From Hydrolagus colliei (lineage: Eukaryota), in the NCBI GenBank assembly GCA_035084275.1, contig CM068748.1:6882001-6946000 (forward strand): DNA of 64,000 nucleotides, given 5' to 3'. The translations under genes were made by a program, and so were the position numbers. Numbering within the stretch: the first letter of the stretch is position 1; each line of letters starts with the position of its first letter. The notes beneath the pieces are model-generated. The model was not told the DNA's origin, did not search any database, and saw only the letters and a program-made list of their open reading frames with translations. This document shows positions 1 through 54,195 of the stretch, piece after piece.

Positions 1-606
1 ACCTTTTGTACCATTATGCAATATGGAACAATATAAAAAAAAGCAGTATTGTGCAAGGATTTTGTTTTAGAAATATTGCACGTATACAATGAAGGGCATC
101 AGTTTTTAATTAAAAAGATTGAAGCTATAGTTCATCACATTATAAGTTCATTTAATTCAACCCGATCTGCCAAAACAGTAATCTTTTTTGGAGATTGGAT
201 AGTAAAATTGCATTGAAGACATCAGGCAATGTAAATTCTCAGTTTAGGTAGAATAAGAGATTCACTTCACCTGGCAGAATAAAAACGCGTCCCATTTTAT
301 TTAATTTCACTGTGGAGGACTAAACTTCACATACCTATAGATTAAATTCCCGTGTTACCCATGCATATTAAGAGACACTGACTCTTAAATGCTCAAGCAT
401 TCTAATCTTAACAGTGGTCAAAGACTCCTTTGAGCTGGTTGATTTCAGAAACCTCAGTCACGGCTGGTCACAGAAACGGTTGCTGAAGACCATCATATAT
501 ACCAAAATGCATGGATAGTCAATGGACCTGCACAAATTCCACCCATCGTCAACTGATGAGTGCTAGAGAGACATTGGCCAGGGATTATTCTTGCCACATT
601 CATTTA

Positions 607-913
607 TTCCTGTGGCTCAGTGGTTAGAGAACTCGCCTTGCAAGCATGAGATCTGGATTCAATTCCAGGCAGGATAAAACCTTGGGCAAATTTCCTTACT
701 CCACATTTATTAATAATAATCCCTCAAAAAAAGTAATCAATTGGTCATTTCAATCCTTGACTGTTTGTGGGATACTGCTGTGTGCAATTGGCTGCTGCGT
801 TTCACCCAGAAAATATACAATCAACGCATTTTACACTATATTCTGTGAAGTGCTTTGAGACGTTTAGAAGATGTGAAAAGCGCTATATCAAATCCAAGGA
901 TCGTTATTATTAT
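607..913 (+). mobile_element. tRNA-derived SINE, full length
   Basis: tRNA-like head (GGCTCAGTGGTTAGA...GGATTCAATTCC), body shared with other copies in the window, (TTA)n tail. Confidence 0.85.
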
Positions 914-2724
914 TCCTGGACTACAGTCCAGGAGACCAGAAACACCATGACTGAAGGTTACAATCCCATCAACCTTGAGAGTTGTGACTACCGATTGGAA
1001 GCAAAGGGAGCAACTCAGCAGCATTTTATTGATGAAGCGTTACCTCCTTTCAAATGTGATGGTGTGCAAACCCCATCTCCCAAACATGCATAGCTAAACA
1101 TCTATATTTATATGCAACAAACAATACCAGTGATGCTTTTCTGGGCTCTGCTGTAACTGGAGAAATACCAACAGTTTGGGTGCATCTTGAAGGATAGGGG
1201 AATCTGAGGATGGAGAAGTTCAATGATGACTCAACAGAAGACTGACTGGCAAGTCACTGGAGACCATCAGTCAGGGTAAAAAGGAAACCCAATTTCCAGT
1301 CAAGCATTGTTTCAACCATCGAACAACAACAACAACAAACTGCATTTATATTGCTCTCATACTTTGCTCTCAACACATGCAGAAACTCACCAACATAAAT
1401 CTGATTTTCTGGGATCAAACTGTACAAATGCATACAGTATATAAGTTTGCAGATATGTTATCACTTTTGGAACAAAATTAAAATATTGTTACCCCTACAA
1501 CTAATTCTGTAATGTGCAAAACAGCAGCAGAAAGTGAACATTTTTCACATTATATGAATATTACTAATTTCTTTGACAGTTTAAGTGAAAGTTAAAAGGA
1601 AGTGTCCACTTTAAAGGTTGATTGAAATTAGATTTAAATTTATTCACAGGCTCGACAAGCTTTCGCCAATATATTGCTAGCTGTTATTTGATTCATCTTA
1701 AACCATTTATATATTTTCAGCCTTAGTCTGTTGCTCTACAGGCCTTGGCTCTTCAACCAGGTTTCCCATTAAAACTGTTAACTGTGAGCAATGTCACTAT
1801 CTAATTCAAATTTAAAATGTTCCCATCAGTAAAATACTGTCTGCTTGTCCTTGTTAAATCAATAATGCATCAATGTTGCATAGCAATTAAAAACCAACAT
1901 TTAAAAAAAGTTTTTAAACTGGTGGTGGATTTGACATTTAAATCACTTTCTAGATGACATGTCAAAAGTTTCAAACTGGTGGAGAGGAACTATAGTGCTG
2001 ACATTATGTCCAAGTGCCGTTCCTGTGGTGTAATAAATAGCTGTGTGTGTTAAGGCCATCATCCATAACAAGACCAGAGGTACCATTAGCACTCCTAAGT
2101 GTTATATAAATCAAATAGGTGCATAAAACACCGTCTGGGGCATTTCTATGGCATGCAAACCACATGAAGATCCCATCTGCTTGGTTGATACTACCTGAGC
2201 TGAAGGCTTTGGCTACCATGTAAGAAGAAGATTAAACCTACATCCATCAAGCTGAAAGATAATTATTGCCTTTGTCAGACACCACCTGTTTCTGTAGCAT
2301 TCTTGAACTCAGGAGGACATGCTGAAACTTCCCTCTGAACTTCACGTTTGACAGCTGCTCCAGGCAGTTTTGTTCATACCTACACTACAACCTCCTCCCA
2401 CATGCCTACATCTTATATGTTTAATGCGCATACTGTATAGGATGTCTGCTTGCCCACTTTTCAAATGTTACAGCATTCATACCAGTGTTATTCAAGGTTA
2501 TTGCACAGGCACTAAACCAATCTTAATAATGAGCGCTTGTAAAAGTCAAGAGACATATTTTGCATATTTTCCTCCCAGATAAAGTCATCTAAAGTCCAGA
2601 ATAAGCATAAAAAATTCAATTGTTGATAGAAAAATGCATATTTGAATCCAGATTAGGTGTTGTTTGAAAAAAAACTAATGTTCATTTTTCCCCTTTTGGC
2701 ACCCAATATCAGCAACACACACCG

Positions 2725-2741
2725 AGGTCAGATATAGTTCA
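2725..2741 (+). promoter_or_regulatory. DR5 RARE-type motif
   Basis: AGGTCA gatat AGTTCA. Confidence 0.45.
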
Positions 2742-5305
2742 GGCCAGATGAAAGCTCTCTAAACTACTACAATGTGCCATAACCTTAACTTCAATAGCGT
2801 TCCTCTTCCTGTACAGTATCAGCAAATGTTTCCATTTCTCACACTAGCCATTGTTGTGGCCTCAGATAATTTGAGCAAGATTCTTGAATTCTGTGCTGTC
2901 TGAATTGTGTTGCTTTTGCTGAGGTTTCATGGCAAACAGAAGAGGATTTCATTCCATCAGTCTTTGTTAACTCGGTTCAAAAGTGAGGACTGTTGAATTC
3001 AGTGAAGACATTGTAAGCATCGCAGCCAAGCATGATCTGATTTCTCACCACATACACATTTCAGCCTGGAGTTAATTATCAGGAATGAGATAGTACTTTT
3101 TCTTTCCTAGTCAATGGAGTATTCAGCCAATTGAGCCAACCCTCGTATGCCACTCGCAATAAACACACTATACCTGTAATGGTGATTGGCTGAAGAAAAT
3201 AGTTTAAATCTTCGCCCATCCTGGTCTATTTAGCTCACTTACACAGTGCCTCTTTACCAAACAAGCAATCAGAGAAGCAAAAGGCTAAGTTTTTTTTAAA
3301 ACTACAGAATCAACAGCTCCATTACCAAGTAACTGCTAATGAAATTCAGAAAACCTCTAATGCATTTTGTGATGAGTTTAATGAAAGCAGCATACACGAA
3401 AGAGTGAATGCTACTGAACCTAATCTAAACCAATAGATAAATACTCAATTCTAAAACTAGAGCAATTAAATCAAGCAGAATATACTTGCACAATGGCCAC
3501 ATTATTGCTGTTATCTGAACTTCTAGAATGACATGAGGTTTTTTTGAATTCCTTATTCAACATTTTGTTGATTGTGGCCTTAACTGTAAACAGATATGCT
3601 TTTGTGAGCTGAAGTGTTGAATAACTTGTTTCATAGGATGTACTCCGCTATACATGTTTTTCAATTTACTAAATTAGAATTAAAAACAACTTTTGCTAAA
3701 GATATACTTAATTTTGAATGGTTTCCCAATGGTCACTATAATATAAGGACCAAGCAGCAGTATTAAATAAGTATCTTTGATCACTTGTACTAAGTTACTT
3801 CAGTAGCAGAGCTACCCTATTTGTGCCAAACACAAAGTGGCTCCAATTGCATGAAAACACACTGCCTGTTATCTGCCATTTTAAAAGCAGAGGAAACTAA
3901 TGAGGTGATCCTGAGATGATACCACCTTATCTTTGTCCTAGGTAGACAGCAAGCCTGCTACTAAGAGTCTTGTAACAGTGACCTGGTACACTCTCTCCCT
4001 CCAGAATGTGCTTCCCTTCAGCACATGGTTGACCTTGCATTCTCCACAGCCAGGTGCTTCACTGTGGCTTTGCAACAGGCTACATCCTTATTACGATTTC
4101 CAGATAATTAGACCCAGTAAACTTTTATAGCCAACAAATGCATCATGGGGAACAAAAAAAACAGCCAGATGGATTGAAGACAAAAAAATACAATACAATC
4201 ACTCTTCCAGCAATCTGGAACCTGCTTTTCTTTGGCTTAATGGTTAGTTGTCATGTTTTGACTTATACAAATGTGGGAAGGAAAGAAAGCCAGGTTTAGT
4301 CTTAAATTGGATCTCAGAGAGACAACAGTGGCAGTATTATTGCTATTGGGCTCAAGACTTGTGGGCTACAGCCATGGAGAAGGAAAATAGCTAGTATTCC
4401 CGCATCCAATCACACACCAGTAATTCCTGCCAGAAAGTGCTTCGACGCCAGGAAAGTCTAAGAGGTACAGTTGCTGTCCTCCCTTGGATGAGTAGCTCAT
4501 CAACATTCATAGGCTATGCTCATAAATGAAGGGCAACTTGGACATGATCCTAGACAATGGCAGTCTGATAGAATCACAGCTTCAAATCAGGAGATAATTG
4601 GGTGGGGGAGGGGAAGAGGAGAGTGAAAGGAAACAGAGGAAGAGAAACCTTCAATAATTTGCGCAGGAATCCAGGCAACATGCACCACACCTTTTTATGC
4701 TGAGAAAGTTTCAGCAGTGATCCAAACCAAATTCAGATTGTTTGACTATGGGAGCAACTCAGACAATTCGAGGACAGAGCAGGACAGTTTCAGCTAGAGA
4801 GGGAGGGGTAAGAGACCCATATGTCTCAGCGCCAGCTGAGTGCAGCTTATAAAATAACTGTAGCCTTGAGTAATTCCACAAAAGCCAGTGAAAGCCCAGA
4901 AAAAAAATGGAGAGATGTAGACAGAAAAGGGTGAAAGCCGTTGGCTGTCTGAATACAATAGAGCTGCAATAATTTAATAAAATGCATTGCCAAGAAAAAT
5001 ATTCAGCATTCAGTGGTTTCGACTGCTAAAGGTTACAGTACCTTATTTATGGGCCTACAGTATTAAGTAAGTACAGTACTTATTTTTTTACATTTTAGAA
5101 AATGAACCCATTCTACGTGACCATTCTATTGTTGAGCAGATCAATAACTAAGTATTTACAAATGGTTATATTGAGTTAAGAAGTGCAGTAAACACACCAC
5201 GGCTTGTTCCAGTGAACTCCATGCCCTGCAGCATGTGAAATCGGATAAGAAGCTTCGACTATCTCAATGTTGCTATGACTTGTCCTGGGGAAGCCTCCAA
5301 TAAGG

Positions 5306-5329
5306 GGGTCAAACAGAGTTCAGTGAACT
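5306..5329 (+). promoter_or_regulatory. DR5 RARE-type motif with overlapping IR1
   Basis: GGGTCA aacag AGTTCA g TGAACT. Confidence 0.65.
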
Positions 5330-5538
5330 GACAAATCAACAATATCAGCTTTTCCAAGGTGCTCCTTTCACTTATCTCCAATCCCTGCTAGTTATTAAAC
5401 TGATGGCTTATACTAAGTAAATAAGAAAAAGTTTTCCCTTGCCAAATGACCCAGACAAGGGCCCATGCGCAAGATTCTGTCGACAAACCTCTGCGCAAAG
5501 TTGATTTAGTCTGTTGTGCTGCGACAAATGCAGCTAGC

Positions 5539-5567
5539 AGTTCAAAAGTTCAGATGAACCATGAACT
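5539..5567. promoter_or_regulatory. Composite DR2 + DR1 nuclear-receptor element
   Basis: AGTTCA aa AGTTCA ga TGAACC a TGAACT. Confidence 0.65.
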
Positions 5568-7785
5568 TTACCATTTCACAGCAGGCTGTTCCATAAATAC
5601 AACCGAAAGGGAAAAGTGGTTAAGGTCCCCAAGGCACAGAACCAAGTGTGGCTGTGTTGAAGTCCTTCCTTGCCCCTCAAATGGGGGTGGGTGCAGGGGG
5701 GCAGGGGAGAAAAGAGATGGAAAGAGAAAGATAGTTGTGAACTAATATGGTAAAGAGATTTACTTTTAAGACCTTATAAGGACTCAGTCCACGTTTTTAG
5801 TGCTTCTGGGCAAATACTTAGTAATGATGAGCCATTACTTTGGAAAGTAAATCTACTAGAGTTATTCAGGAAAAAAAAGAAAATTCTAAGAGGATTTGTA
5901 TTCCTGGTCATGCCTTTTGGTCTCTGTGGTGGCATTCCTCCTAGTACGGAACTTAGTGGAAAAATCAAAACAAATGGGTCATGACTTTTCGTATTTGTTT
6001 AAAGCTGATGTATATGTCATCTTGTGATGTGGCCTTGGACCCAACCATGCAAAACAGTACAAAGCATAATTAGGCTGGGAATGAAAACAAACATATGTTC
6101 CATGCTCCTTTAACTTTATGTGCTAACAAGGAAATTACTCATCCAGATTTTCACAGGAACATATAAAAACATACATAGCACACGTTCTGACATCTCACAA
6201 TTGTCGAGACATGCAATGGCAGGAAAGAAAGAGGAGCAAAAAAGGGAGAAGAGAGTCTAAATCCTATACGTAGACCATCAAGAACAATTTGTCAATTATT
6301 AGACAAAATTTACAATCCTGGTGGCCCTCAAAACTAATGTTTGCTTAGCAAAACACTAACGAGACTGCAGGGAATAGCAGAGTTGCACACTAAGGCGTTT
6401 CAATCAGATCACAGGTTTCGAGTATAGACAGAGCAATGCATACTACTGTAAACTGAACAAACAATTCAAAAGATGATTATGAACTCTTTGGTTGAGGAGG
6501 CACATACCAGAGGACTCCAATCTGTCCTGTTTTGTAACCCCACTCAATATCTTTAGTGGTTTTATCCAAAGCAGCAAAAGATGATCTGCACTTTGGGTTA
6601 AAGCACTAGAAAAAAATATGCATTTCTACAAACACATTCAAGTGGGATTTTATGTGGAGGAGATTTTGTTTGGAAGAATTAGAGAGTCCTGCTCAAACAG
6701 GCTGGCAATATTGGTTCATCAGCTGGTACACACATCAGGGAATTCTTCGGTAATGCTCATTCTAGAGGGAAGTGCACACAGACAATTTTGAAGTTTTCTC
6801 CTTGAAGAGAAGTTCAAAAGAGTATACTGTGTCCATTGAATGGACTCCTTTTGAGATGGTAAATTTACAACTATAGCCTAAATATGATATTCAAGACCAT
6901 TTCTGTGAAGGAAACTGCAATAGTTCTTCCATCAATTATACAAAAAAAGGCCTTCAATTGCCACCCCACCCCCCCACTCCTTTGTGGTATTTAAGGTAAA
7001 GCGAATCTACAAAAGTTTCAATCCTATATTTACCAGTCGATACAAGTGGTTCGACTGTTAGAAAATTGGCTATTTCCTATCAAATATGCAATATTTTATT
7101 TTATTGAAGTACTGTATTCCTAACAGGTAGGAAGCGCTCTGAGACGCCATCCGGCGTGGAGGGCGCTATATAAATCGAAGTTGTTGTTGTAGGAAATGCA
7201 GAAATACTGTAACAGCTGCCTGGAGTCAGAAATAAGCTTTAATTTCCCAGAAATGAAAAGTACTTGAACATGAACTGAATATAAGAAGTAGAAAGATTCA
7301 AATGCTCACTTTGGAATTTAACTTAAGATAAATTGTATTACATTGTATCACAGATCCACTTTGCTTTTTCAGCTTTAGTTAAAGATAGAATAGGCTATCA
7401 TTTAAAAAATAAGATCCATTGGAACGTCTCCAGTCCCTCTCCATCAGTACGTCTGCAATATAATTTCTCCTCAGCTTTCCTCTCTGGATCTCTTCAAAGT
7501 TGTTGTTCAACTTCTATCTCCCATGAGGCCTGAAATTCTACATAGTCTACAAGTCTTGCCAGAGATATCTATATATTTTAAAAAGATCATCTTCTTTTTA
7601 CTTTAACCAAGAAAGTTCTTATGCATTCCCCCCCTCCCACCCCCCCGTTTTTAAAAGTACTGTACTAGATTATTTCAGGAGGACAGGAACTTTAAAATTT
7701 TCATAATCTTAAAGAAAATAAGTTAAAAATAGTATCCAACATAGCAAGTTGTGTGTGTTAAACTGTTGTAGTGACCATTGAATCA

Positions 7786-8102
7786 GAGCCTAAGTGGAGC
7801 TCAGTGGTTAGAGCACTCACCTAACAAGCATGATACCCATGTTCGAAACCAGGCAGATCAGGGCGAAACCTTGGGCACGTTTCCTTATTCCACATGCCTA
7901 ATAATCATCCCTCCCCCCCAAAAAAATTGGTCATTTCGATCCATGGCTGTTTGTGGGACACTGCTGTGCACAACTGGCTGCCGCGTTTCGTCCACAAGTA
8001 TACAGTCAATTCACTTTACAGTATATTATGTGAAGCGCTTTGAGACATCTTGTAGATGTCTCAAAGCACTATATCAAATGCAAGGATTATTAGTATTATT
8101 AT
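7786..8102 (+). mobile_element. tRNA-derived SINE, full length
   Basis: Same family as 607-913. Confidence 0.85.
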
Positions 8103-8109
8103 AAAACTC

Positions 8110-8412
8110 CAATGCAGTGGTGATTGTAAGTTTCATTGTCAGAGATGCCGTTCTTCAGATGAAATGTTAAACCAAGGTGTTCACGTGGACATCAAAGGTC
8201 CATGGTACTATTCGAAAAGAAAAGTGAGTTTCTCCCTGTGTCCTGGTCAACATTTCTTCGAATAGTCACTTATTCCACGGCTGTTTGTATACAACCGGGT
8301 AGCTCGTTTCATCCACAAAATATAATCATGCACTTTACAATATATCCTGTGAAGCAGTTTGAAGTTTCTTGACAACATGATAGGGTGCTATATCAAAATG
8401 CAAAGATTATTC
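8110..8412 (+). mobile_element. SINE with Deu-like central domain
   Basis: gatgccgttcttcagatgaaatgttaaacc...atcaaaggtccatggtactattcgaa resembles the DeuSINE core; same 3' tail as the main SINE family; similar to 40295-40690. Confidence 0.55.
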
Positions 8413-9066
8413 TTAAGGTTTTGACCCAGGTCAGTGTCATGATGGAAGGTGGCAAGCAAATACAAAGCATTTCCCAAGGAGTAAAATAAATGTCATGTTA
8501 TGAAGAACATTGATGTGAGATACAACCTGGCAGAGGTTGAGAACAGGTTGTCTACTTCGACTTTTTATTGGTCGGGCAGATTAATTTAAGAGACAATATT
8601 AGGAAAAGGAGTTTTCAATCAAGACACAGGGACACACATACATTCACTGTATTTTTGTTGTGTCATTTTAAATAGAAAAAATGAACATATACAAAATAAA
8701 AATTTGAATACTTTCTCTAGAACTCCCACCTGCACCACTGCTGAACTTCTGACTGCATGAAAGTAGTCAACAAGGTCATGAGCCTTTCAGGGACCAAAGT
8801 CTTTCATCAGACCATCCGTAAAACTAATAGTCAGAATACCAGCATCTCCCCTGGGGTCTCCTGTGGCCTGTGTATGAACTCCATTCTGCTCAATGCTGGT
8901 GTGACAGAGAGCAGAGCCTTACCAGATGGCAAATACGACTGGCAATTCTAACATCAGGTATATCGGGTCAGATCTACATAAGGCCGTGATATTTCTTTGC
9001 TGCTTGCTAGCATTATTTATTAAAATATAGTCCAAAATCAGATAATGTTAAAATGACTTCACTTAC

Positions 9067-10110: not shown

Positions 10111-10383
10111 GAGTCCTGTTGCTCAGTGGTTAGAGCACTCGCCTTACAAGTGAAAAACTGGGTTCTGTTCCAAGCAGGGGGAAATCTTGGGCGAAAATAA
10201 TCCCTCAAAAACAAGTGGTCACTCAATCCATGACTGTTTGTGGGACACTGCTGTACACAATTGGCTGCTGCATTTTGCCCACAAATATACAGACAATTCA
10301 CTTAACAGTATAATCTGTGATGCGCTTTGCGACATCTAGAAGATGTGATAAGGCACTATATCAAATGCAGGGATTATTATTAT
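10111..10383 (+). mobile_element. tRNA-derived SINE
   Basis: Same family as 607-913. Confidence 0.85.
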
Positions 10384-10664
10384 AAATCAGAATATTTGCT
10401 GAACCTTTCATTGCATCAATAATCAAGCAACTTAAAAACACTCAACTCTTTAAATATAAATTGCATTTTATACTATCCCTTTCACATCAGACGGCCGTCT
10501 CAACATTTGACATGATTTACTACATAGTGCACTAAATTGTATACTATACATTATGCACTGTATAGTGCAGACTGAATTTTGAAGGCAAAAATATTACGTG
10601 AGCTAATCAGCGACAAGTATTCATTGAAGGTTTGCTTAGACGTTGTTCGTCTCAATTAAACTTA

Positions 10665-11309: not shown

Positions 11310-11333
11310 GGGTCACCAGTTCAAATTGGTTCA
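11310..11333 (+). promoter_or_regulatory. DR2 + DR4 triple half-site element
   Basis: GGGTCA cc AGTTCA aatt GGTTCA. Confidence 0.55.
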
Positions 11334-11707: not shown

Positions 11708-11884
<177 letters not shown>

Positions 11885-14534
11885 TTATTTTTAAATGAAC
11901 AAAACAAATTAGACAATTAAAAATTGCTTGTTTATTCTGATAACTATACACATGTTCAACCTCATTTTCAGCAGCATTATATCTATTAATAATGACAGCA
12001 CTTAATGGATATATTCTGAATATATTTTAATACATTTAAGTAAGTAGCATAGGGGATTCTGCTGGGAGTACAGGAATACTTCTGTGTACAATATTCTCAC
12101 TTACTTGTATATTGTACAATATTTAGCATTAAAACTTAGTAGTGTTTTCATGATAAGGTAGTGACTAGACCTCCATGGTGATAAGCAAACAGATGTCAGA
12201 AAAATGAAGGCAAATTGCAAACAGCTCTTTTCATCTATCGCTCATTTTAAAAAGAAAGATCATGGTGCGATTCTTTTGAAGAACAATAAATGATATTTTC
12301 TTTATACCAGAGATCACAGACTCATTATAGAAACACAATCATATGCAACAAGTTATCCAATTATATCTCTTCACATTTTGAGATAAAAGACAAAATGTCC
12401 TTAGAAACAAAAATTGGCAAAAAAGATGGACATAGAACTGCAGAATATCCATGACAAAACATTTCCTTTACTCTTTTTTTTAGCATTTCCTAAGGGCATC
12501 TTGTTTTCACATTGTGAAACACAACCTTCAACTCTATTTTGTATCCAATTTCCACAAACACTAAAGACTGCAAGAGTTCATGCCCTTAGTTGTTCTCTAT
12601 GAACTTATTCTGACACTAATTTCCAAGAAAGCATCATTTCGACACAATTGCACTACTTGGCTTTAGGCCACAATTTCAAAAACACAACTCTGTGCAAATG
12701 AGGCTCCCAAATAAACAAGATCTAGTTGCATATACTCCAGGAAACCACATATTTTGACACTAGATTACATAACTTTCCCTAGATTTATTACATTAAAAAC
12801 AGCTGGATTACACAAACAAATCCAGAAAGCTGCAAAAAGCAATACAAGACCATGATACTTGCACATTAGCACTCTCCTACATTAATATTCTAGATACTCT
12901 GCACAGGCACAAGACTGCACAGTTCTCAAGAGTTTTCATTCCCTTTTATTCCTCAGTATGGTAACCATAACATGGCATAATGCAATTTATTGCTATCAAT
13001 GCAAAGTGGTTCTCTGCGGTTTACAATTTTCAACAAGGTTCTGAGCATCTGTTGATGCCTCAGACACCAGAAATTACTTCCACCACATAATCAACAGTTC
13101 GACCAAGGTACCAGGAAGGGTATTGAGGTTGGGACATTGGACTAAAAAAAAGGTTGTTATTATGTACAGATGGCAAGATCATTGCTCTGAACAAGGTGAG
13201 TTCAAATCAGTCAAAGAACTTTCTTCAACTGAACCTTTGGGGATCTTGAATTACATAAACCCAGACAGTGAATGCTGGCAGTATTTGGCTGTAATGGGCA
13301 TCAGACGAAGTCCAAATTTTGCTCAGCAGATGTCTACTTTCCTTCAAGGTCCACTGCTATCTTAGGAGACAGAATCATGGTGGACATTACCCTGCCTAGT
13401 GCAGGATTTGTATCACTCCCTGCTGCTGCTCTCAATAGATCAGCTGAGTGAAGATTGAACCTGGGACTTTTGTGGTCTGGAAGACTCCACTGGCACTTTA
13501 ACTGTTTAATGTACAATAATTTCAAGTGTGCTGGACAGTGTAGTCCCAACACAAAACACAGTTTCCTTAGCATTTTGCCACCAAACGCCAGTATTTTTCA
13601 TTTCTACTAATGCTCTTCTATGGAATGAAATGGTTAACTTTCCTGTACTTGAACACAGTTACTAAGGCAAGTAGCGCATTTATTTATATGGAACATCTGC
13701 AGCTTTCAGGCAGCTGCCAAAGCACGAGTTAAAATAAACTGGTGAAAGGAAGCTGCCCAGTTCATGGAGAGGGCAGAAACGATATAGTGCAGCGAGTCCC
13801 TGACACTTTTGCACACACAGGCAGAAAGAATCACCCCCAGCTGCCCCGCTACAAATCTCCCCCTGAATCAGTGAGAAGAAATGCTCTTCACAACATTTCA
13901 CTCTCATTTTAGCACCCATTATCTCTACTTTTCATACTCTTTGGGTTCATTCCCATGTCAAACCCACCAGTCTGGCTTGTGCATTAGACTGCTCTCTCAT
14001 TACTGCTGGAAAGCACAGTTTCGCTCTATTGAAATACTGATCTTCAAAGATTTAACTAATGCTTGGATTGTAAAGCATTTTAAAACACTTCGGAATTTTT
14101 TTCCCCCCAATTTTAAGGGTCAACAAAAGAAAATACCAATGCAAATAACTTGGAAGCTATCACAATAGTATACGATGGCTAGGTAAAGAACCAACAGTCT
14201 AACGTTACTGACAGGTTGCAAAACCACCCAGAATACATTCCAAAAATAGTTTGAACTCATATCAAAGCTAGAGCAGGTTCATAATCATAGTGAATGCAAA
14301 CATGTTAGAGATTTTCATATTGTTGGAAGTGTAGTATTTGAAAACAATACTATATCAATAAACTGCCTAATTAGGTGAAACAAATAAAAGTCTATAGTTT
14401 CCTTTTCCCCACTTCTAACTCCTCCTATTGAGATTCTCACTACCTGGAATGTTGCTGTGGTGTGCTGGTGATGCCAATACAGTATAAAGTTACTGTACAG
14501 CAATGGATAAATACAGAATAGCCACAAATGATGC

Positions 14535-14660
14535 ATAGACAACTATGCATTTCGCCCACAAATATACAGTCAATTCACTTTATGGTATATTCTGTGAAGT
14601 GCTTTGAGATGTCTAGAAGACGTGAAAAGCGCTGTATCAAATGCATGGAATATATTATTA
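14535..14660 (+). mobile_element. SINE 3' fragment
   Basis: ...gtgaagtgctttgagatgtctagaagacgtgaaaagcgctgtatcaaatgca. Confidence 0.75.
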
Positions 14661-17290
14661 TACTGTATTACTCAACCAATGCTACTATACACGAGTCTAT
14701 TAAATCTACCAGTGGTAGACATATTAAAATTATCCACGAGGATAATTAAAAAAAACTAGAACAGCATTAACAATATGTGCTTTGAGTCAAAACTTATTTT
14801 TGGTAAATTTTATGCTCAAAGCTATGGATGTCAGACTGCACGTCACCAGCTCTATGCACTCTCCATGGTCAGGAGTAGCAAAAGCTCTCATTACACAACC
14901 TCTAATTAAGTCAGCCACTGCACCAGCATGATCCACTTCTACCTCACAGCCATCCTCTTGAATGAGAAAAATGTGGCACATGGTCACCAGTAACTGTTAA
15001 GTCTTCTCAAAACACCCTCCACATAGAACTCTTTACACTCTGCACACTCTACAGCCAGATAAGACTTATCCCACATCTGGTTTGGATTGGAATCTAGATC
15101 CTAAAAGGTAAAAAGCCAATGACTCATTGTGCCTCACTTCATATGTGGTCCCAATTATCTTTTGTTATCTTTTGAGCTCCTCTTGCGGGTGCAGCATCAA
15201 AACATAGCTTGATTTCCCCCCACTGATCCAGCATGAGGGTCTCCAAACAACAATCAGGAAGAACCGTAATAAGACATAAGCTTTCTTATCTCGACGGTGT
15301 TAAGGCAGACTGCAACACCCCTGCTGACCTACTGATGCACGACTACATCTTGATTTATATCCATTTGTTAGGGTATTGGTTTTGGCAGAAGCACAATATC
15401 AGCCAGACAGTGATACATATATTTACTCCAATTCTCTGTAGTCCCACCCATTGAGTACATGTGGGAAAGCCTATAAAGTTCAAGGCAAGTCATTTGCAAC
15501 GTACACATACAAATGCTACAGTTTGGCAGCAATAATGTAGAGACATTAGAGACATGTAGAGGTATTAATGTTTTTTTTCGGGTGAGCAGACTTTCCATGA
15601 CGCTTGAGGAAATTTTGTGCTGGCTAGAAAAATAACCTGATGCTTTGGCCCTCAATATTTAGGCAAATTTGGGCACATAGTGAGGTAATGGCATTACATT
15701 TACATTACAGCATTGGTGCCAAGTTGAGGCTTGGATCAGAAGCATTGATGTAATACAAATGCACCACACAACATTGGACTGTTTATCTTTTGTAATTACC
15801 AACGGAAGGGGTATAAATCAGTCATCCCAGTTTTACATTTCAATCCCAAAAAGTCAAAAGCAATAAAAGAATCCCAAGTTACAAATAATGGCAATTTGGG
15901 ATTCTCAATTCATAGAATTGAATCATCTGTAACAAAGTTGAATTTACAGTTTAAAAACACGTTGAAGCTTTTACACAACAAAGTCTTGAATTGGCCGAAA
16001 AGAAAAAGCAAACAAATGCTTTCTGCTCTCTCATTCCCTCCCCCAATTTCTCTGCAGAGAGCTCAATCAGAAATCCCATGATCAAGCCTCCATCAAGTTT
16101 AAGTTGATGCTTGAAGGAGCATAAGAGTACCAGGATACCTCCCCCTTTCATTTCCTTTCCCACTGAGAAACGTCTGCTACTTGGTTGAGACTGGGAGTTT
16201 ATTCTGATAGAAATCTACCAATTCATGACTGTTGGTACAAGATCCAAGATTGCCAAGTATCCTCATCCCACTATTATTCCTAAATCGATTTTATTGCTAT
16301 GGCAACGGAACAAATTAGACCAGATTAATATCAAACCCTTGTGCTGGACAGCAAGCTCTTTGAATCAAAGCACTATATGAACCAAAAAATGTCACAGGCT
16401 TGTTTGGCACAGCTTTCTGCAAGTTCCCAAATCATCTTCAAAGAGCTGGCTTGGTCTGGAGCAAAAAAAAGATGCCTTTGGAAGAGGAAGACTCAACAGA
16501 GCTCATCTGATGTTGTTAATATACACACAAAGTTATCACTGATCTGCCCTGAACTTCACCTTTAAACTTCCAATGTTTAGATCAGCATTACATCATGCAT
16601 TTCAAATGATTTTGCATATGTAGCACTTGAAAATAAAACCTTCTAAGAGAACATCGGGTATAGCATGAAAAGTGCACACAATATTGGGTTACGTCCAGCC
16701 TGAGGCACATAGCACGTGGGGCACACATAGCTTTTTGCATAGGCTTTACTGAAGACTTGTAATATTTACAGTCAGCAATCGCTTCTCCCTCCAAGCTTTA
16801 ACTTTTTACTAAAAATGTTGCTAACTTCAAAGAACTGATTTGAACTTGAGCTGATTTGAATGTGGCCAGAGGTTGTCGAGGTTAACTGTTTCACAACTGC
16901 TGGAAAGAAGCGGCAGCGATGCAGCCACCATCAACGCACCACATTCCCAGTGACGATAAAGGACTTGAAAATTTACCTTTGTTACCAAGCCTCTTCTAAT
17001 ATGAAGTGCTGAATTTTATTTTTTTTGCTGGCTTATCTGTTCAGGCTGGTATTAAATTGCACACGTTTCTGAGCCTTCACGTCAGAATGCGGACCTCAAA
17101 TGAAGTGTCACTCAACACCAAAGTCAGATGAGGTACGTTCCAATTCGAGATCTAAATCTTTGTTTCAGTGGAAGGTGATCTGGCCCTTTCTTTCCCCCTT
17201 CCATGAGGGCAGAAGGTTAAAAGGGGTATAAACAAAAGAACCCACTCTGATCTTTGTCAGTTCAGAATGTAAAAACACAGACTCATGCTT

Positions 17291-17304
17291 TGAACTTGTG
17301 AACT
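17291..17304 (-). promoter_or_regulatory. DR2 RARE-type motif
   Basis: AGTTCA ca AGTTCA on the minus strand. Confidence 0.55.
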
Positions 17305-18089
17305 GACATTTTGAAGTGCAAAGCAGCTTCTGGCTTATTATGGAGCTAAAGTGGCTTTGCTTCTTGGATAAAGAGATGGAGCAGGGGGAAATATCCAGAA
17401 TCCCGAAGGATTATAGTACTTGAAGAGTTGCTGTGGGTGAGAGAGTTTCAGTCACAAACGTTCTTCTGTTGGATTCAAACAATGCCTTAGAATCCTGCAA
17501 TAAGGCATGTAAATTACCAGGAGCGTCCGTTAACCACAATACTGGCATCGAGGTATGTAAGGAACATCACAAAGCAATAAAAGCAGATAAAACAAGTTTC
17601 ATAAAGCTACATTACCAGCTGGAAACTCAGTCAGACATTTAGTTTGAGAAAATTCTCATTCCCAGTAACATTTTTCAAACTGAAGCCCAAGTGAAAATTA
17701 ACTGGAAAACAGTCTAGAAAGTTGCAGGTGCATACAAGTTATGTTTATACAGTGCCTTTCATTTCAGGAAGGCAGTGACAGAGGCAGGCAAAGTTGACTA
17801 GATAGGGAAAAAGCAAAGCACGCAATCCCAAATGTAGGGTTGAAGGATAGTTGGAGGGGCGGGCAAAGACTGTGTGATGAAGTGAGCATTCTTTGCTGTC
17901 AGGTGAGAAAGTGCTGATATGAAGCCAAGATGGAAATGTCTAATCTGGTTGGTATTCAGCTGCAGAAAATTAATACTACTCAAGAAATCTCTCTTTGAGC
18001 ATATCTTTCCCCCACTCTGACTGATCCAATATAGGTATGAGGAAGTTTTTTAACTCCTTAGAAAGAATGAGGCTTCCTGCCTCTAATGG

Positions 18090-18450
18090 ATGAGTGGATA
18101 AATGCCACCTGGCACACCAGAAAATCACATAAACCAGAAGGTTTCAGATTCAACTCTCTGCTCCGAGTTAGATGAATCTTTGCAGAGCGTTAGTTGGCTT
18201 CGGTTGCTGTGAGTTAAGCAGGGGGGGGAAAAAAAAGCCAGGATTTCTGCTCCTGATCACTACCAGTGAACCTTGCTGGAAAAGTGCACATGTGTGGATG
18301 TCAGTTAACAGGATCATGCACAGCTGTGATGCACTACAAGGGTGGATTAGCCTGCTGACATCCAGACAAGGCTCACACATGAAGTACCACTTGGGTGAGG
18401 TTTATAAGAGTCACGGACGTGCACTGCAGAATTCAACACTGCAGAGCTGC
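18090..18450 (+). repeat. Old interspersed repeat (SINE-like); degraded relatives at ~4290-4600 and ~22800-23000
   Basis: Shared tctgctcctgatcactaccagtga...ctggaaaagtgc motif; family not identified. Confidence 0.5.
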
Positions 18451-18599
18451 TGTACTAAGAGTAAAATGGATGCTGTGAGAATTCAGAATCTGCAGATTTA
18501 GAGCTCCCCCAATTCAACTAAAAAGATTCTGGGGTTTTAGAATGAATGCTACCAAGACAGCAGAACCAGATAAGTTTACAGTGTAAATGGAAATTTCTG

Positions 18600-18805
18600 C
18601 ATAGGTGCCAGGAGGAAGTCGTTTATTTTTAGGAAAAGAAGCTTGGATGGTAATTAATGACTGGAACAGGTTACCAGGAAGCATGGTTGAGGCCATCACA
18701 CATTTGAAAAGCATGATGCTGTGAATGGGAAGAGAGCAGAGCAGGTATTCCAGAAGGATGAGATGAAATGGGCCGAATGGCATTCAAACCTCTTGTGATC
18801 TTGTA
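18600..18805 (+). mobile_element. CR1-type LINE 3' fragment
   Basis: tggaacaggttaccagg...atggttgaggc...gatgaaatgggccgaatggc, typical CR1 3' end. Confidence 0.55.
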
Positions 18806-19225
18806 AATACAAATCCAGTTTTGATCACATGCCCAGCTTGAAGGTATTACGATTTTATTTCATGAGACATTTCATGTAACTACCATTGACATATTCAACC
18901 ACTAATTTCAGTAAGTTGCACGAGGACAGAATAGAATACAGAAATCCATTGCTTGTTCCATTTTTTGAGAAATGGGACTTTTAGTTGTATTTTAGAAGAT
19001 GTATGGAGGGTCATTTGCTCTATCAAACACATGTTCTGTACCAAAAAGATTTAAACACGTATCATTTCGGTTTTCCTTGAACTCAGACTTAGCTGTATTG
19101 CAAAACTCACCGTATCAGTCAGCTGGATGAGTCAGTTGTCAAAATGTCAAAATGTTTCAAGCACATATCAAAATAAAGCAATGAATAGAAGTTTCCTTGT
19201 TCATGAAATTATTATTGTATTACCC

Positions 19226-19259
19226 TGAACTGCCAGTGAACCCTTCTTGCTTATAAAAG
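19226..19259. promoter_or_regulatory. DR5 RARE-type motif next to a TATA box
   Basis: GGTTCA ctggc AGTTCA (minus, 19226-19242); TATAAAAG at 19252 (+). Confidence 0.6.
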
Positions 19260-22200
19260 AGGCAGCTGTTCGTGCGGCTAAAAGCCATGGTTCACTACAA
19301 ATTGACCCTGAATTAAGGAGTAAAAACTTCCTCCTTGCTACTATAACTATTCAAACAGTCTGGAGATAAACAATAATTGAAGTTGGAGGAAACTGCACCA
19401 GAAAAGCCCACTATACTGCTTTGGCAGAATTATAGTAGTGCTTGGAGCATCAAGAGCAATACAATGTCAAATTACCCTAAAATTTCCCCTTACCCAAATG
19501 TAATAGGTCTGGCCTGCCAACTTTAGTACAAACAAAGGCTGATTGTAATGACGCCTAAGCATATGAATATCGAAACATTAACCAACATAAATTTTGCACT
19601 TTCAAAGCTTCGTGTCGGGGCTCTGATGTAGTGTACCTATTTAAATTCTCTGCAAGTCTCCCATTAAATCATTCGCTAAGGAATTGCTGTGGCTCATTTC
19701 AAACTGTAGTTCTTTCCCTTTAATTACAAACGCTCTGAGAATCACTAAATCTGACTAACAAAATGAGGTTTTAGATCACTGCTGGTTCTTTCCACGTTGC
19801 ATTGCATGCAAGAATCTCAAGGCTTTATTAGTAGCTTGCTACCTCTTTTGAATCAGTGCTGTCTCTTCTGTCTCAGTGGTTGGTCTATGGGAGTCAAGCT
19901 TCTGTTCCCAATCTACATACTGCCTTATGCCAGATTAGTCTATGTACACATAATTAAATTCAAGAGTTTCCAAACAGCTCTCAGTGTAATCTTCAACACT
20001 CCCATCATTGAAGCAACAAACCCAGCATGACAGACAGCAATAGACTGGGGTGGGGGAAGGTAGCTAGAATCTGAAGCCCCTCAGGTGTTATAAGCTCAGG
20101 CACAACGTTTATTTGATTCATAGCCGGGGCATCACTGTCAATTTCAGCATCTTTTTTAAAGAAAGAAGTCAAGTCAATAAAAGTTTCATTTACAAGGATC
20201 TTTCCATGTGAGAATATATATATATATTTTAAAAATCCATTGCCTGCAGCAAACCAGGAGCTAAGTGAATGTACCAAAGTGATGCATTCTGCCAATGTTG
20301 ACACTGACAACCTTTCGACAGCAACAGAAGCAGAAGTGTGGCTGCTTCTGATCTCAGGCAGGTGAAGCTCACATCAACCAAATGCAGGCTTGCAAGTAGT
20401 TTTGAGATCACCGACTAGTACAAATCCTCCTTAGTTATTGCCGGACATATCACCATAGCTAATAGCTTTGACCTGCTCGGTCATTTTTAAATGGAAACCA
20501 ATTGCTGTAGAAACTGTCCAATAATAAACAGGTGCAGTTTTTGCTACACTCAAAACAACCAGAAAAATAGCATGTATTAGGCTGAGGCTGGGAAATTGTG
20601 TAAGTTGTTAGGCAGCACACGATAACAGACATTAGAGCTATGGAGGATACAATGTAGGATCACAAGGATGATAAAAGTAAGAGGGGTAGCTAAATAGGTC
20701 ATATATTTCTGTTGGGATAAAGGAAGCATGGTGGGTGATATAACATAAAAGGATAAGGGACTAATTGCACTGGTGGATGATTTAAATCACAATTTTGAAT
20801 CATTGCATGGGTGGCTTTTGGAGTAGAATTGATTGGTGCATTAAAAGGTAATGAGATCAACACAGGCTGAAGAAAGGAAACAAAAATAATGTTAGCAATG
20901 TTAAAATAACTGAAATGGAAAATATTATCATATATTAGGTTATAAGAGCGTGAAAATATAACCACCATAAAAAGCTTGGGTGGTTGCAATTCTTTTCATG
21001 ATCGCATAGTCAGTCAGCATCTCTGAGTCTAGTTCATACATGAAGAGGAACCACAAATCAGCTTGCACCCCGCCTCCCCACCGTCCCACCAAACTATATC
21101 CCAGCAAAGGCAGTGCCTTCAAAAGAAGTGGAAAAGTATACAAAGTAGAAAAGAAGTGTGAAAAAAATCACAATTCTACTAATACAGTAAGCAAAAGCTT
21201 GGAAAGGTTACACTGAGACCAACAACCCTTCAAAGCGAATGGCCTCAATTTAAAGAAAATTAGAATTTCACTGACAGTAGTCAACACAGTATGTGCTGTA
21301 AGATGAAGTATAAAGGAACACACCGGGCTACACATGTACACTTAGTGAGCACACATGTGTGCAATCCAAGTGGAGATCATATTAACCCTATCTATAGGGA
21401 TCCCCAGGTATCAAAGATTCCAGTTGTGTAATATGAAAATGTCATGGTAAATACAGCACCAAATACTAAGCAGGCTGCAGTTTGATCTAAATAACCTTAT
21501 TGGCTAAGAATGAACTACAAAATTTAGCAGCTTTAAAGCTTAGCAGCTAATTACTTTAGCTTTGTGATAGCAACATTAGTCATACCACTAAGACACTGGA
21601 ACAGATTGATATCCTGTTTCATCTTACTAGCTGCATCACATTACATATGTTTGAGTGGAGTACTCAAATGCTACAACTTTTGAATGGTCCCATTTACTTG
21701 ACAAATTAATCTCAAGATTGCTTCAAATATAGTGAGCAAAAGCAGGTAATTTACTAAATTTCTAATTCTGAACAGTTTCCACGTTACAGCTGAATAGTGT
21801 ACCATCAAGGCTTAAAGCGTGCTATAGAAAACTTGTGTGCAAGATTGCAAAGAAATTGGAATAAAGCAATTTGAATTTTGTGCTAAGAGTGAACACTCCT
21901 GCTTTATTTTTTTCCTGTCCAAGTACAAAACAGGATTATTCATATCAAGAGGGATGCTACTTTTACAAATGAAAACCCTCTCTCGTTTCCAGTCAGATAC
22001 ACAATTTCATTTATTTGCTCTCTGAATGTTTTGTTTTGGCTAACTTTCTATACACTATACATCGATTAAAACAAGAATCTTGGTTAATTTTCCCTATCCA
22101 TAAATGAGGAGTACTAAGAGCAAACAACATACCCAGACTGTTGCCCTGGTTGAGATCAGCTAACCGAATGCAGTCTGGCAATCATACCATGCCTTCTGGG

Positions 22201-25200: not shown

Positions 25201-26234
25201 AGCCTTTCCCCTTTTGAACAGTTTCACATTTTTCCTTCATTCCTGTCCCTCACTCCCCTATTTATGGTTCAAAAAAATTGTATTGCTCACTTTAGGATAT
25301 GGATCCTGATGGACTCATTGGAGGACCCCGCTGGAAAGAGTTCCTGAGTTTGATGGTGTAAAGAGTTGAATTGATACCAGCAGAAAAATTATAAAGGCTA
25401 TCTGAATGCTGCAAACTGTAGCCAGAGAGCATAGTTCGAGATTCTGAAAGGTATTCTGCAGTGCCATTTCTCGAATACAAACTGATCAAACTATCCTTGA
25501 AATACTAGGCATGGATGAGAAATAACTGCTAGGAACTTTGAGAGGAGACTCTAGGGATTTGCAACAATATTGATTCAATGGATTGAATAATAAAGAGCAT
25601 CAATTCTTAAAACATCATGAAATCAGGTTCATTCATAGGATTGTAATTGCACAACTCTAATACAGCTTTTAAAATAAATACAGCCTTCCTGTGGATTTTG
25701 TAATTTACAGAGCAAATGACAAAACAGTAAGGATTACTAGTTGTAAGTTTTCTCTACTTAAAACAAGACAAAGTAATTTATTTTAGCTTCACATTTACAA
25801 TGACTTAAACATACAGCTCATGGTATAAGGCAAATGTTTCCTTCTCTAGCAGATTAATGAGTTATTTGGAAGCTTCATGCAATTTGAACCTCAATTTCAA
25901 TGCAGTAAACCCCGGGCTCCAGGTATTCGGAATTCGGACCGGGTTCCAAACCAAATTATTGATATTAAAATTTCCAGACTCACATGTACAATTCTGCCCT
26001 ACCTCACCATGCTTGTGAGCCATCAGTGGCCAGGGATGGACTTGATCGGTTTGAAACTCGTGAAAAGATTTGCTATGTTCTGTTCACGGGATTCAAACAA
26101 TGTCGGTGCGCAAAAAAAAACTTAAATGCCAATACCAGCATTGTAATTCCACTTAAAAATGCCTGTAATAGATTTCCCCCCCTCTCCTTTGCCAGGCTAG
26201 TGTAGTGCATTCTAAAGTACTGTACAATACTCAC

Positions 26235-26719: not shown

Positions 26720-26773
26720 AATTTTTAATTATATAATAATAATTATATAATTATTATTATATAATTAAAAATT
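26720..26773. repeat. Perfect 54-bp AT-only palindrome
   Basis: Sequence equals its own reverse complement. Confidence 0.9.
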
Positions 26774-26837
26774 TTTTAATTATATAATCCTGGAAACACT
26801 ACCATAGAAAGTGCCGTACCTTAGATTCAAGTTACCA
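26774..26837 (+). repeat. 64-bp exact duplicate of 29673-29736
   Basis: ttttaattatataatcctggaaacac...ttcaagttacca identical at both sites. Confidence 0.95.
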
Positions 26838-27853: not shown

Positions 27854-28156
27854 GGTGGCAAGTGGGGTAAAAAATTAAAAAAACATATTTTTTTCATGTC
27901 AAAGTGTACTTTGAACTATATACTTTCAGAAATAAACTATTTGGATTGGTGAAATAAACTTATTTCCAAAGAAATATAGGGAATGTGACATATGAAATAA
28001 GTTTTATTGTTGAATTCTTATTCTTTACCCTATATTTCTTTGGAAATAAGTTTATTTCACCAATCAAAACAGTTTATTTCTGAAAGTATATAGTTCAAAG
28101 TACACTTTGACATGAAAAATGTATTTATTTATTTATTTTTTACCCCACTTGCCACC
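27854..28156. mobile_element. Foldback MITE, TTAA target-site duplication (Kolobok-like)
   Basis: TTAA|GGTGGCAAGTGGGG...CCCCACTTGCCACC|TTAA; ~128-bp inverted arms. Confidence 0.85.
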
Positions 28157-43933: not shown

Positions 43934-43950
43934 AGGTCACCTTCAGGTCA
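43934..43950 (+). promoter_or_regulatory. DR5 RARE-type motif
   Basis: AGGTCA ccttc AGGTCA. Confidence 0.45.
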
Positions 43951-53616: not shown

Positions 53617-53913
53617 GGAGTCCTGTAGCTCAGTGGTTATAACAATCGCCTTACAAGCAAGAAACCTGGGTTTGATTACAGGCAGGGAGAAACCTAGGCA
53701 AATTTCCTTACTCCACACGCCTGATAATAATCCCTTTAAAAAAAAATGTCATTTCAATCCATGATCGTTTCTGGGATACTGCTGTGGACAATTGGCTTCT
53801 ACGTTTCACCACAAATATACGGACAATTCCCTTCACAGTATATTCTGTGAAGCGCTTTGAAATGTCTAGAAGTCGTGAAAAGCACTATATCAAATGCAAG
53901 GATTATTATTATT
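53617..53913 (+). mobile_element. tRNA-derived SINE, full length
   Basis: Same family as 607-913. Confidence 0.85.
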
Positions 53914-54195
53914 GAGGGCTTGGAAGTAGATATCCTAATATCATCTTGAAATACACTTCAATGCACCTATTGTTAAGTACATCTAAAGACACCAAAGATT
54001 AAGGTAGGAAAACAGAAATGGTACCAAACAAATTGTACAGGATAAAAATGTAGCACCATTTTAACATCATCCAGAAACTGCAAAATAAATAAAGTTAGAT
54101 TGTTTTCATAGAATTTAACTTGTGTATAATGTCTAAAGCATGTGGAAGACATTCTAATCCATCCTGACTGGAAGAAAGTGAAATATGTAACTTAC

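What the first reader, a model, noticed from the sequence alone, without database searches (positions are those of the whole stretch)
5200..5600. Dense composite nuclear-receptor module: seven perfect half-sites in two blocks
Seen: GGGTCA-5-AGTTCA-1-TGAACT (DR5+IR1) and AGTTCA-2-AGTTCA-2-TGAACC-1-TGAACT (DR2 head-to-head with DR1). There is also a DR3-like TGAACT cca TGCCCT near 5213 and two C/EBP-like TGCGCAA sites (~5467, ~5492), in sequence that does not look repetitive. Inference: this is the core enhancer of the array, and the four-half-site block could load two receptor dimers.
Basis: partly seen in the sequence, partly recalled or inferred. Interest (0 to 1): 0.7.

Follow-up and report, generated by a model that had tools for sequence, protein, structure and literature searches.

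The report
Retinoic-acid enhancer inside myoferlin intron
In what is likely a chimaera (a cartilaginous fish), a single-copy cluster of retinoic-acid receptor motifs sits inside an unusually long intron of the myoferlin gene and likely acts as a distant switch for the neighbouring retinoic-acid-destroying gene CYP26A1, a known kind of feedback enhancer in a new place.

Summary
The motifs are real. Nine perfect RGKTCA half-sites lie in 5213-5567, seven in two blocks (DR5+IR1; DR2+IR2+DR1). At most 2 of 1,000 simulated windows are this dense, and one genome match was found. The stretch lies in a 12,215-bp intron of a myoferlin gene, 30.5 kb from the start codon of CYP26A1, whose promoter carries a DR5 identical to zebrafish R1. 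Of 14 non-coding direct repeats in the 74 kb around CYP26C1-CYP26A1 and myoferlin's 3' end, 11 have the RAR spacings 2 or 5. The two myoferlin introns holding most downstream sites are about ten times the median length and repeat-poor. In related organisms the blocks show no listed change, while one of the two C/EBP-like sites is lost. Best reading (0.75): an RAR/RXR feedback enhancer of CYP26A1, hosted by a bystander gene. Mouse and zebrafish have downstream Cyp26a1 RAR sites too, but intergenic ones. Binding, induction, target and two-dimer loading are untested. New member of a known kind.

The parts
5306..5329 (+). Block 1: DR5 GGGTCA-AACAG-AGTTCA plus a third half-site TGAACT (IR1 to the second)
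   Evidence: no change in 5 of 5 runs that cover it (X5, X6, X7, X8, X13); spacer fits the NNN-R-V consensus of bound amphioxus CYP26 DR5s
5539..5567 (.). Block 2: DR2 on + (5539-5552) facing DR1 on - (5555-5567) across an IR2; four perfect half-sites
   Evidence: unique pattern in genome; no listed change in X13 and X8, none shown for X5 and X6 in a cut table
5447..5452 (-). Lone perfect half-site GGGTCA between the blocks
   Evidence: unchanged in X13, X7 and X5
5213..5227 (-). DR3-like AGGGCA-tgg-AGTTCA (one perfect, one mismatched half-site)
   Evidence: only the spacer base 5221 differs in X5, X6, X9; status of 5213-5218 in X13 not readable
5255..5424 (.). Most conserved core: 170 bp without a listed change in the most distant run
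   Evidence: X13; X8 0 changes over 5267-5417; X7 0 changes over 5268-5430
5466..5472 (+). C/EBP-like TGCGCAA, first copy (imperfect palindrome)
   Evidence: unchanged in X13, X7, X5
5492..5498 (+). C/EBP-like TGCGCAA, second copy; not conserved
   Evidence: 3 changes in X13, 2 in X8
1..9066 (-). Host intron of the myoferlin gene, 12,215 bp; begins at window 9066 and ends 3,149 bp left of the window
   Evidence: flanking exons join in frame with GT/AG ends; the same intron is about 370 bp in the paralogue on contig C1
9067..9162 (-). Myoferlin coding exon upstream of the host intron
2725..2741 (+). Sister DR5 AGGTCA-5-AGTTCA in the same intron
11310..11333 (+). Sister DR2+DR4 (three half-sites) in a 956-bp myoferlin intron
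17291..17304 (-). Sister DR2 AGTTCA-2-AGTTCA in the 14.3-kb myoferlin intron (about 11883-26230)
19226..19242 (-). Sister DR5 GGTTCA-5-AGTTCA in the 14.3-kb intron

Best explanation
This single-copy cluster of DR5, DR2 and DR1 half-site repeats lies in a long myoferlin intron and is likely a retinoic-acid-responsive enhancer of CYP26A1, whose start codon is 30.5 kb away. Shown: motifs, non-randomness, intronic place, identity of the neighbours, an R1 element at the CYP26A1 promoter, DR2/DR5 enrichment over the locus, conservation in close relatives. Inferred from mouse and zebrafish: RXR/RAR dimers sit on the DR5 and DR2 (and possibly DR1); retinoic acid swaps co-repressor for p300, the region gains H3K27ac and contacts the CYP26A1 promoter; CYP26A1 then destroys retinoic acid, closing a negative feedback loop. 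Several sites, here and in the sister elements, would raise gain and buffer the response. Myoferlin would be a bystander host. Two dimers on block 2 at once is a possibility only.
For: Chance excluded. Neighbour is CYP26A1: last exon 95% identical to Callorhinchus milii CYP26A1, all seven coding exons found; its promoter DR5 AGTTCA-CACAA-AGTTCA, 171 bp before the ATG, equals zebrafish R1 at 166 bp (PMC5247814 Table 1). 12 non-coding DR1/2/5 in 74 kb against 2 in the other 240 kb of the contig stretch and 2 in 100 kb of control stretches; 11 of 14 non-coding DR0-10 pairs there are DR2 or DR5, and 9 of 11 without this element. Host introns 12.2 and 14.3 kb against a median of 1,163 bp over 36 gaps, with 7.2% and 0.9% repeat cover against 11.5-19.8% in flanking regions. 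X13: 19 changes in 431 bp of the element against 114 in 1,537 bp of alignable flank (Fisher P=0.03), no indel, 8 of 8 half-sites in 5306-5567 intact. Precedent: a mouse downstream enhancer with two RAREs is needed for full Cyp26a1 induction (PMC13738024); zebrafish RARaa peaks at +25, +33, +48 kb (PMC8608873 supplement). In F9 cells Cyp26a1 rises at 6 h while Myof does not move until 48 h; in zebrafish RA raises cyp26a1 and lowers cyp26c1.
Against: No binding, chromatin, reporter or expression data for this species. The 74-kb domain was drawn after seeing the repeats, which inflates the density contrast. Half-site conservation alone is weak: 0 changes in 48 bases has P=0.025 at the flank rate but P=0.18 at the element's own rate; relatives reached are only about 7% diverged, and 6 of 16 listed runs were laid. 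No deep conservation was testable. The mouse enhancer and the zebrafish downstream peaks are intergenic, and the mouse F9 RAR/RXR table shows no chr19 peak in mm9 37.970-37.999 Mb, the last 26 kb of Myof (table cut at 9,956 rows), so this is probably not a positional orthologue. The same half-sites serve other nuclear receptors, and not all RAR sites are functional.
Confidence: 0.75

Rival explanations
1. RAR/RXR binds here, but the target is the host gene myoferlin or CYP26C1 rather than CYP26A1.
For: The element is inside myoferlin; Myof rises late (48 h) in RA-treated F9 cells; CYP26C1 is about 50 kb away in the same cluster.
Against: The myoferlin promoter is at least 62 kb away (last matched exon C15:6949164) and DR1/2/5 vanish towards it (1 in 6902-7046 kb); the repeats centre on CYP26A1; Myof shows no early response; cyp26c1 falls with RA in zebrafish.
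Confidence: 0.08
2. It is a hub read mainly by other nuclear receptors: COUP-TF as a competing repressor, FXR on the IR1, VDR or PXR on the DR3, PPAR, HNF4 or RXR multimers on the DR1 (receptor preferences recalled).
For: IR1, IR2, DR1 and DR3 geometries are present. PMC4446430 proposes such hubs. NR2F1 binds the CYP26A1 RA-responsive promoter region and inhibits RAR/RXR (PMC13622096 abstract passage).
Against: No AGGTCA half-site among the nine; locus-wide spacings are DR2/DR5, with 0 perfect DR3 and 1 DR4; DR5+IR1 is at chance level in the genome, so IR1 may be a by-product of half-site piling.
Confidence: 0.08
3. The sites bind RAR/RXR but are redundant or have little effect, one of a dozen low-impact sites around an RA-induced gene.
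For: Twelve non-coding DR1/2/5 in the domain; deletion of the mouse enhancer left about half of CYP26A1 protein.
Against: Densest cluster in 314 kb; 170 bp without a listed change in X13 points to selection.
Confidence: 0.07
4. Chance, a repeat remnant, or a coding or structured-RNA feature.
For: Tandem repeats can give equal half-site density; a 106-codon stop-to-stop frame overlaps 5425-5745.
Against: the 10 X13 changes in that frame fall 5/2/3 on codon positions 1/2/3, with no third-position bias.
Confidence: 0.02

Closest known systems
Mouse Cyp26a1 distal RARE enhancer (Li et al. 2026, PMC13738024; mm10 chr19:37,788,057-37,792,531)
   Same: Downstream of Cyp26a1 on the Myof side; more than one RARE; feedback on RA clearance is what the element here is inferred to do.
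   Different: Mouse element is about 90 kb from the start and intergenic (Cyp26a1-Myof gap about 197 kb; assembly offset inferred); here the gap is about 10 kb and the sites are in myoferlin introns. Two RAREs were defined there; here three direct repeats and nine half-sites in 355 bp. Sequence homology untested (supplement cell cut).
CYP26A1 promoter RAREs R1/R2 and the amphioxus CYP26 RARE array (PMC5247814)
   Same: DR5/DR2 built on AGTTCA; many elements spread over a CYP26 cluster; R1 itself is present in this genome.
   Different: R1/R2 are upstream single DR5s; this is a downstream, intronic, composite cluster.
Zebrafish cyp26a1 RARaa ChIP peaks (PMC8608873 supplement)
   Same: Three peaks 25-48 kb downstream; one upstream peak lies in an intron of a neighbouring gene.
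   Different: Downstream peaks are labelled intergenic and are not in that paper's list of RAR sites in conserved elements.
Composite RAR/RXR response elements (Chatagnon 2015, PMC4446430)
   Same: Most predicted elements in bound regions have extra half-sites and several motif types.
   Different: The associations named in the passage read are DR2 or DR5 with DR0, and ER2; DR2-IR2-DR1 with four perfect sites is not named there.
Genomic regulatory block with a bystander gene (PMC7530604 passages; PMC3514665 listing only)
   Same: Long introns of an unrelated neighbour hold candidate enhancers; Cyp26A1/C1-Myof-Exoc6 synteny reaches lamprey (PMC10879103).
   Different: CYP26 is not named in PMC7530604; deep conservation of these elements is not shown.

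Membership tests
RARE (RAR/RXR response element) | RGKTCA direct repeats spaced by 1, 2 or 5 | tested here: met
   DR5 5306, DR2 5539, DR1 5555; definition as in PMC5247814
RARE (RAR/RXR response element) | More than chance, single copy, non-coding | tested here: met
   intronic
RARE (RAR/RXR response element) | Near an RA-induced gene | tested here: met
   CYP26A1 at 30.5 kb; induction known from mouse and zebrafish only
RARE (RAR/RXR response element) | Evolutionary conservation of the half-sites | tested here: inconclusive
   intact in close relatives, element more conserved than flanks (P=0.03), but shallow divergence
RARE (RAR/RXR response element) | Bound by RAR/RXR | not testable with these tools
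   needs EMSA or ChIP
RARE (RAR/RXR response element) | RA-dependent activation needing the half-sites | not testable with these tools
   needs reporter or deletion
CYP26A1 distal feedback enhancer | Contacts and activates the CYP26A1 promoter | not testable with these tools
   needs 4C/Hi-C and deletion
Orthologue of the mouse Cyp26a1 distal enhancer (PMC13738024) | Same position relative to Cyp26a1 and Myof (intergenic) | tested here: not met
   here intronic in myoferlin; mouse intergenic
Orthologue of the mouse Cyp26a1 distal enhancer (PMC13738024) | Alignable sequence | not testable with these tools
   supplement cell cut at about 400 of 5,501 characters
Genomic regulatory block (bystander-hosted enhancers) | Long, repeat-poor introns of a neighbour holding candidate elements | tested here: met
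Genomic regulatory block (bystander-hosted enhancers) | Conserved microsynteny of target and bystander | tested here: met
   CYP26C1-CYP26A1-myoferlin here and a CYP26-ferlin pair on C1; lamprey to mammals in PMC10879103
Genomic regulatory block (bystander-hosted enhancers) | Intronic elements conserved across distant lineages | not testable with these tools
   no shark or bony-vertebrate genome held; mouse table gives no peak in the last 26 kb of Myof
C/EBP binding sites | Full TTGCGCAA palindrome (consensus recalled) | tested here: not met
   0 in window; both sites mismatch at position 1
C/EBP binding sites | Conservation of both copies | tested here: not met
   second copy changed in X13 and X8

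The most novel reading that the evidence does not exclude
The retinoic-acid feedback landscape of CYP26A1 was originally housed in the 3' introns of myoferlin, as seen here. That would explain why CYP26A1 and MYOF have stayed neighbours from lamprey to mammals, with bony vertebrates later re-housing the enhancers in an expanded intergenic gap. Within it, the DR2-IR2-DR1 block would be a natural four-site platform that loads two RXR/RAR dimers cooperatively and makes RA clearance switch-like.
Probability: 0.15. Interest if true: 0.62.

Novelty: new member of a known kind. Interest (0 to 1): 0.35.

Why it matters
CYP26A1 induction is the main brake on retinoic-acid signalling in vertebrate embryos. 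Its distal control was shown genetically in mouse only in 2026 (PMC13738024), and PMC10879103 asks for RAREs around the CYP26 tandem to be characterised to separate ancestral from derived control. This gives a compact 400-bp candidate from the cartilaginous-fish branch, testable in a zebrafish reporter, and a concrete idea for why CYP26A1 and myoferlin stay linked. The kind of element is not new.

Tried and rejected
Repeat or mobile element: rejected. Structured RNA: 0 Rfam matches at E<=0.1 in 4000-7000. Coding frame 5425-5745: rejected. My first idea that the element is intergenic between CYP26A1 and myoferlin: wrong, exons continue 10.7 kb left of the window. DR5+IR1 as a recurring grammar: 3 hits against 5 in the control; the two other hits were not examined. 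Paralogous copy at the CYP26-ferlin locus on C1: only a weak match to block 1 (E=0.99, 29 of 39 bases, inverted, intergenic), not accepted; the homologous introns there are 367 and 466 bp. The DR5 at C15:6873042 lies in a myoferlin coding exon and was dropped from non-coding counts. Pfam scan of four ferlin exon fragments gave nothing over a cut-off. Ferlin identity: two of three exons score best with myoferlin, one ties with dysferlin; synteny supports myoferlin. Mouse peak table: prefix searches were noisy; 3797, 3798 and 3799 were read in full, 3800 only 4 of 71 places, 3801 4 of 17, 3802 4 of 5, 378 15 of 156 and 379 15 of 340. Run X9 covered only 5190-5224. A 2011 survey of conserved DR5 elements was not held. 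Earlier findings by sequence, near place and relatives: none.
Full report
OBSERVATION. Block 1 (5306-5329) is GGGTCA-5-AGTTCA-1-TGAACT. Block 2 (5539-5567) is AGTTCA-2-AGTTCA-2-TGAACC-1-TGAACT: a DR2 on the plus strand facing a DR1 on the minus strand. Two further perfect half-sites (5213, 5447) give nine in 355 bp, the densest 400 bp in 314 kb of the contig. In 1,000 simulated windows at each of two Markov orders, such density arose 1 and 2 times, a chain of four 0 and 1 times, and 8 DR1/2/5 per window (observed) never, against a mean of 0.6-0.8. The four-site pattern is unique in the genome. The triple DR5+IR1 is not: 3 hits against 5 for the reversed control. Density alone can be faked by tandem repeats, but this stretch has none, has one genome match and no cross-match to 614 kb of fetched sequence.

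SURROUNDINGS. The window is G000:C15:6882001-6946000. Two P450 genes lie to its left on the plus strand. The nearer one is CYP26A1: its last exon is 95% identical to Callorhinchus milii CYP26A1, which also makes a chimaera the likely source (inference), and all seven coding exons map to 6856788-6861637. The farther one (6837734-6846124) is about 41-61% identical to CYP26A1 per exon and is called CYP26C1 from the known tandem order (PMC10879103, passages); this name was not tested separately. A DR5, AGTTCA-CACAA-AGTTCA, lies 171 bp before the CYP26A1 ATG, letter for letter the zebrafish R1 element at 166 bp (PMC5247814, passages and Table 1). The window itself is filled by a ferlin gene on the minus strand. 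Two of three exons tested score best with myoferlin, one ties with dysferlin; a second CYP26-ferlin pair on contig C1 is taken as CYP26B1-dysferlin by synteny. The ferlin exons run on past the left edge of the window to C15:6871340, about 10 kb from the CYP26A1 stop. The element therefore lies inside a 12,215-bp myoferlin intron (GT at window 9066; flanking exons join in frame), 30,518 bp from the CYP26A1 ATG and at least 62 kb from the myoferlin promoter.

THE ARRAY. Strict DR1/2/5 repeats number 15 in 314 kb; 13 fall in 6828-6902 kb, one of them in a coding exon and dropped. That leaves 12 in 74 kb against 2 in the other 240 kb and 2 in ten control stretches of 10 kb; the bounds were drawn after the fact, so the Poisson value overstates it. 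The spacer spectrum is the cleaner test: 11 of 14 non-coding DR0-10 pairs in the domain have spacer 2 or 5 (P about 2e-6), and 9 of 11 without this element. Of the seven non-coding DR1/2/5 inside myoferlin's 3' part, six lie in its two longest introns (12.2 and 14.3 kb; median 1,163 bp over 36 gaps between matched exons; 367 and 466 bp in the paralogue). These introns are not swollen by repeats: 7.2% and 0.9% cover against 11.5-19.8% in flanking regions, and 3.2% over the CYP26 genes (cover measured only against fetched sequence, so a lower bound).

CONSERVATION. Sixteen public runs hold part of 5000-5800; six from other samples were laid. The most distant, X13, differs at 19 of 431 bases in 5190-5620 with no indel, against 114 of 1,537 alignable flank bases plus 61 gap letters (Fisher P=0.03). 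Thirteen of the 19 are listed by place; none falls in the eight half-sites from 5306 to 5567, and none in 5255-5424. The six unlisted ones probably lie near the ends of the stretch, so the 5213 site cannot be judged in X13. Block 1 is unchanged in 5 of 5 runs covering it. Zero changes in 48 half-site bases is only weak evidence by itself (P=0.025 at flank rate, 0.18 at the element's own rate). The second C/EBP-like site carries 3 changes in X13 and 2 in X8; the first is intact. Single low-depth contigs can carry errors. Deeper conservation could not be tested.

MECHANISM. Shown: the anatomy above. Inferred: RXR/RAR binds the DR5 and DR2; the DR5 spacer AAC-A-G fits the consensus of amphioxus CYP26 DR5s bound in gel shifts, where 12 of 13 DR5 and the one DR2 bound. 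With RA, p300 recruitment, H3K27ac and promoter contact would follow, as shown for the mouse downstream enhancer (PMC13738024, abstract, two results sections, first part of the discussion and the table supplement read). CYP26A1 is the likeliest target: it is the nearest known promoter, the repeats centre on it, and in F9 cells its value under the 6-h heading is 5.6 while Myof's is -0.27, rising to 1.7 only at 48 h (PMC4446430 supplement, read as log2 fold change); in zebrafish RA moves cyp26a1 by +4.4 and cyp26c1 by -7.2 log2 (PMC8608873 supplement). In block 2 the recalled polarity rules (RXR 5' on DR2, RAR 5' on DR1) would give RXR-RAR-RXR-RAR along the DNA with the two inner binding domains 2 bp apart; whether both dimers fit is unknown, and the sites may be alternatives. 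Composite elements with extra half-sites are the rule in RAR/RXR-bound regions (PMC4446430, passages), so block 2 is an unusually perfect case of something common.

COMPARISON. It works like the Cyp26a1 feedback RAREs. It meets the sequence criteria of a RARE cluster; binding and induction are untested. It is probably not the positional orthologue of the mouse enhancer, which lies about 90 kb downstream in a 197-kb gap before Myof (offset between assemblies inferred). The mouse F9 peak table has one RAR/RXR peak 21 kb beyond the Myof 3' end and none in the last 26 kb of Myof (table cut at 9,956 rows, rest of Myof not read). Zebrafish has three downstream peaks, all labelled intergenic. Nine searches of the open library found no report of RAREs in myoferlin introns or of a cartilaginous-fish CYP26A1 enhancer; subscription journals are not covered, and unread supplements (the large PDF and the cut enhancer cell of PMC13738024, bioRxiv files) may bear on this. 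Other papers: PMC13393102, PMC11040003, PMC7530604 and the bioRxiv version of PMC8608873, passages only; PMC13622096, one abstract passage. An earlier scan note (e1-9160808) reports RARE-like arrays in and after EXOC6B near CYP26B1 in another chimaera genome; it is a lead of the same type, unchecked here.

VERDICT. A real, selected, composite RARE cluster, most likely a distal CYP26A1 feedback enhancer hosted in a myoferlin intron (0.75). New member of a known kind; interest 0.35. The intronic housing is the only point that departs from mouse and zebrafish, and it offers a testable reason for the old CYP26A1-MYOF linkage.

Noticed in passing
G000:C15:6856600-6856616, 6855262, 6850151, 6862856, 6828286 (left of window; loci L004, L005, L003, L007): CYP26A1 promoter DR5 identical to zebrafish R1, a second DR5 1.5 kb upstream, a DR5 between CYP26C1 and CYP26A1, a DR2 1.2 kb past the CYP26A1 stop and a DR2 9 kb before CYP26C1.
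   Followed up: partly
window 11883-26230: 14.3-kb myoferlin intron with only 0.9% repeat cover and two RARE-like repeats; a likely store of further conserved elements.
   Followed up: partly
G000:C15:6873042 (L002): A perfect DR5 lies inside a myoferlin coding exon, produced by the DEPNMNP codons; coding by-product or exonic site.
   Followed up: no
G000:C1:6472051-6472089 (L026): Between the paralogous CYP26 and ferlin genes, a DR5+IR1-like stretch weakly resembles block 1 (29 of 39 bases, E=0.99, inverted); five strict DR1/2/5 lie in 6436-6474 kb of the same gap.
   Followed up: partly
G000:C15:6843242-6843925 (L005): One exon of the CYP26C1-like gene has a long open insertion (228-codon frame) compared with CYP26A1.
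   Followed up: no
window 27864-28145 and 60084-60238: Near-perfect inverted repeats (118 and 63 nt arms), MITE-like; the second family recurs on C1.
   Followed up: no
window 26767-26837 and 29666-29736: A 71-nt stretch duplicated at 99% identity 2.9 kb apart in two myoferlin introns.
   Followed up: no
window 608-922, 7792-8122, 10114-10393, 53621-53917 and others: Copies of a tRNA-headed SINE-like family on both strands.
   Followed up: no
window 43934-43950: Isolated DR5 AGGTCA-5-AGGTCA in a short myoferlin intron outside the RARE-rich domain.
   Followed up: no
G000:C6:10411272 (L057) and C17:4532483 (L059): The two other strict DR5+IR1 triples in the genome; neighbours not examined.
   Followed up: no
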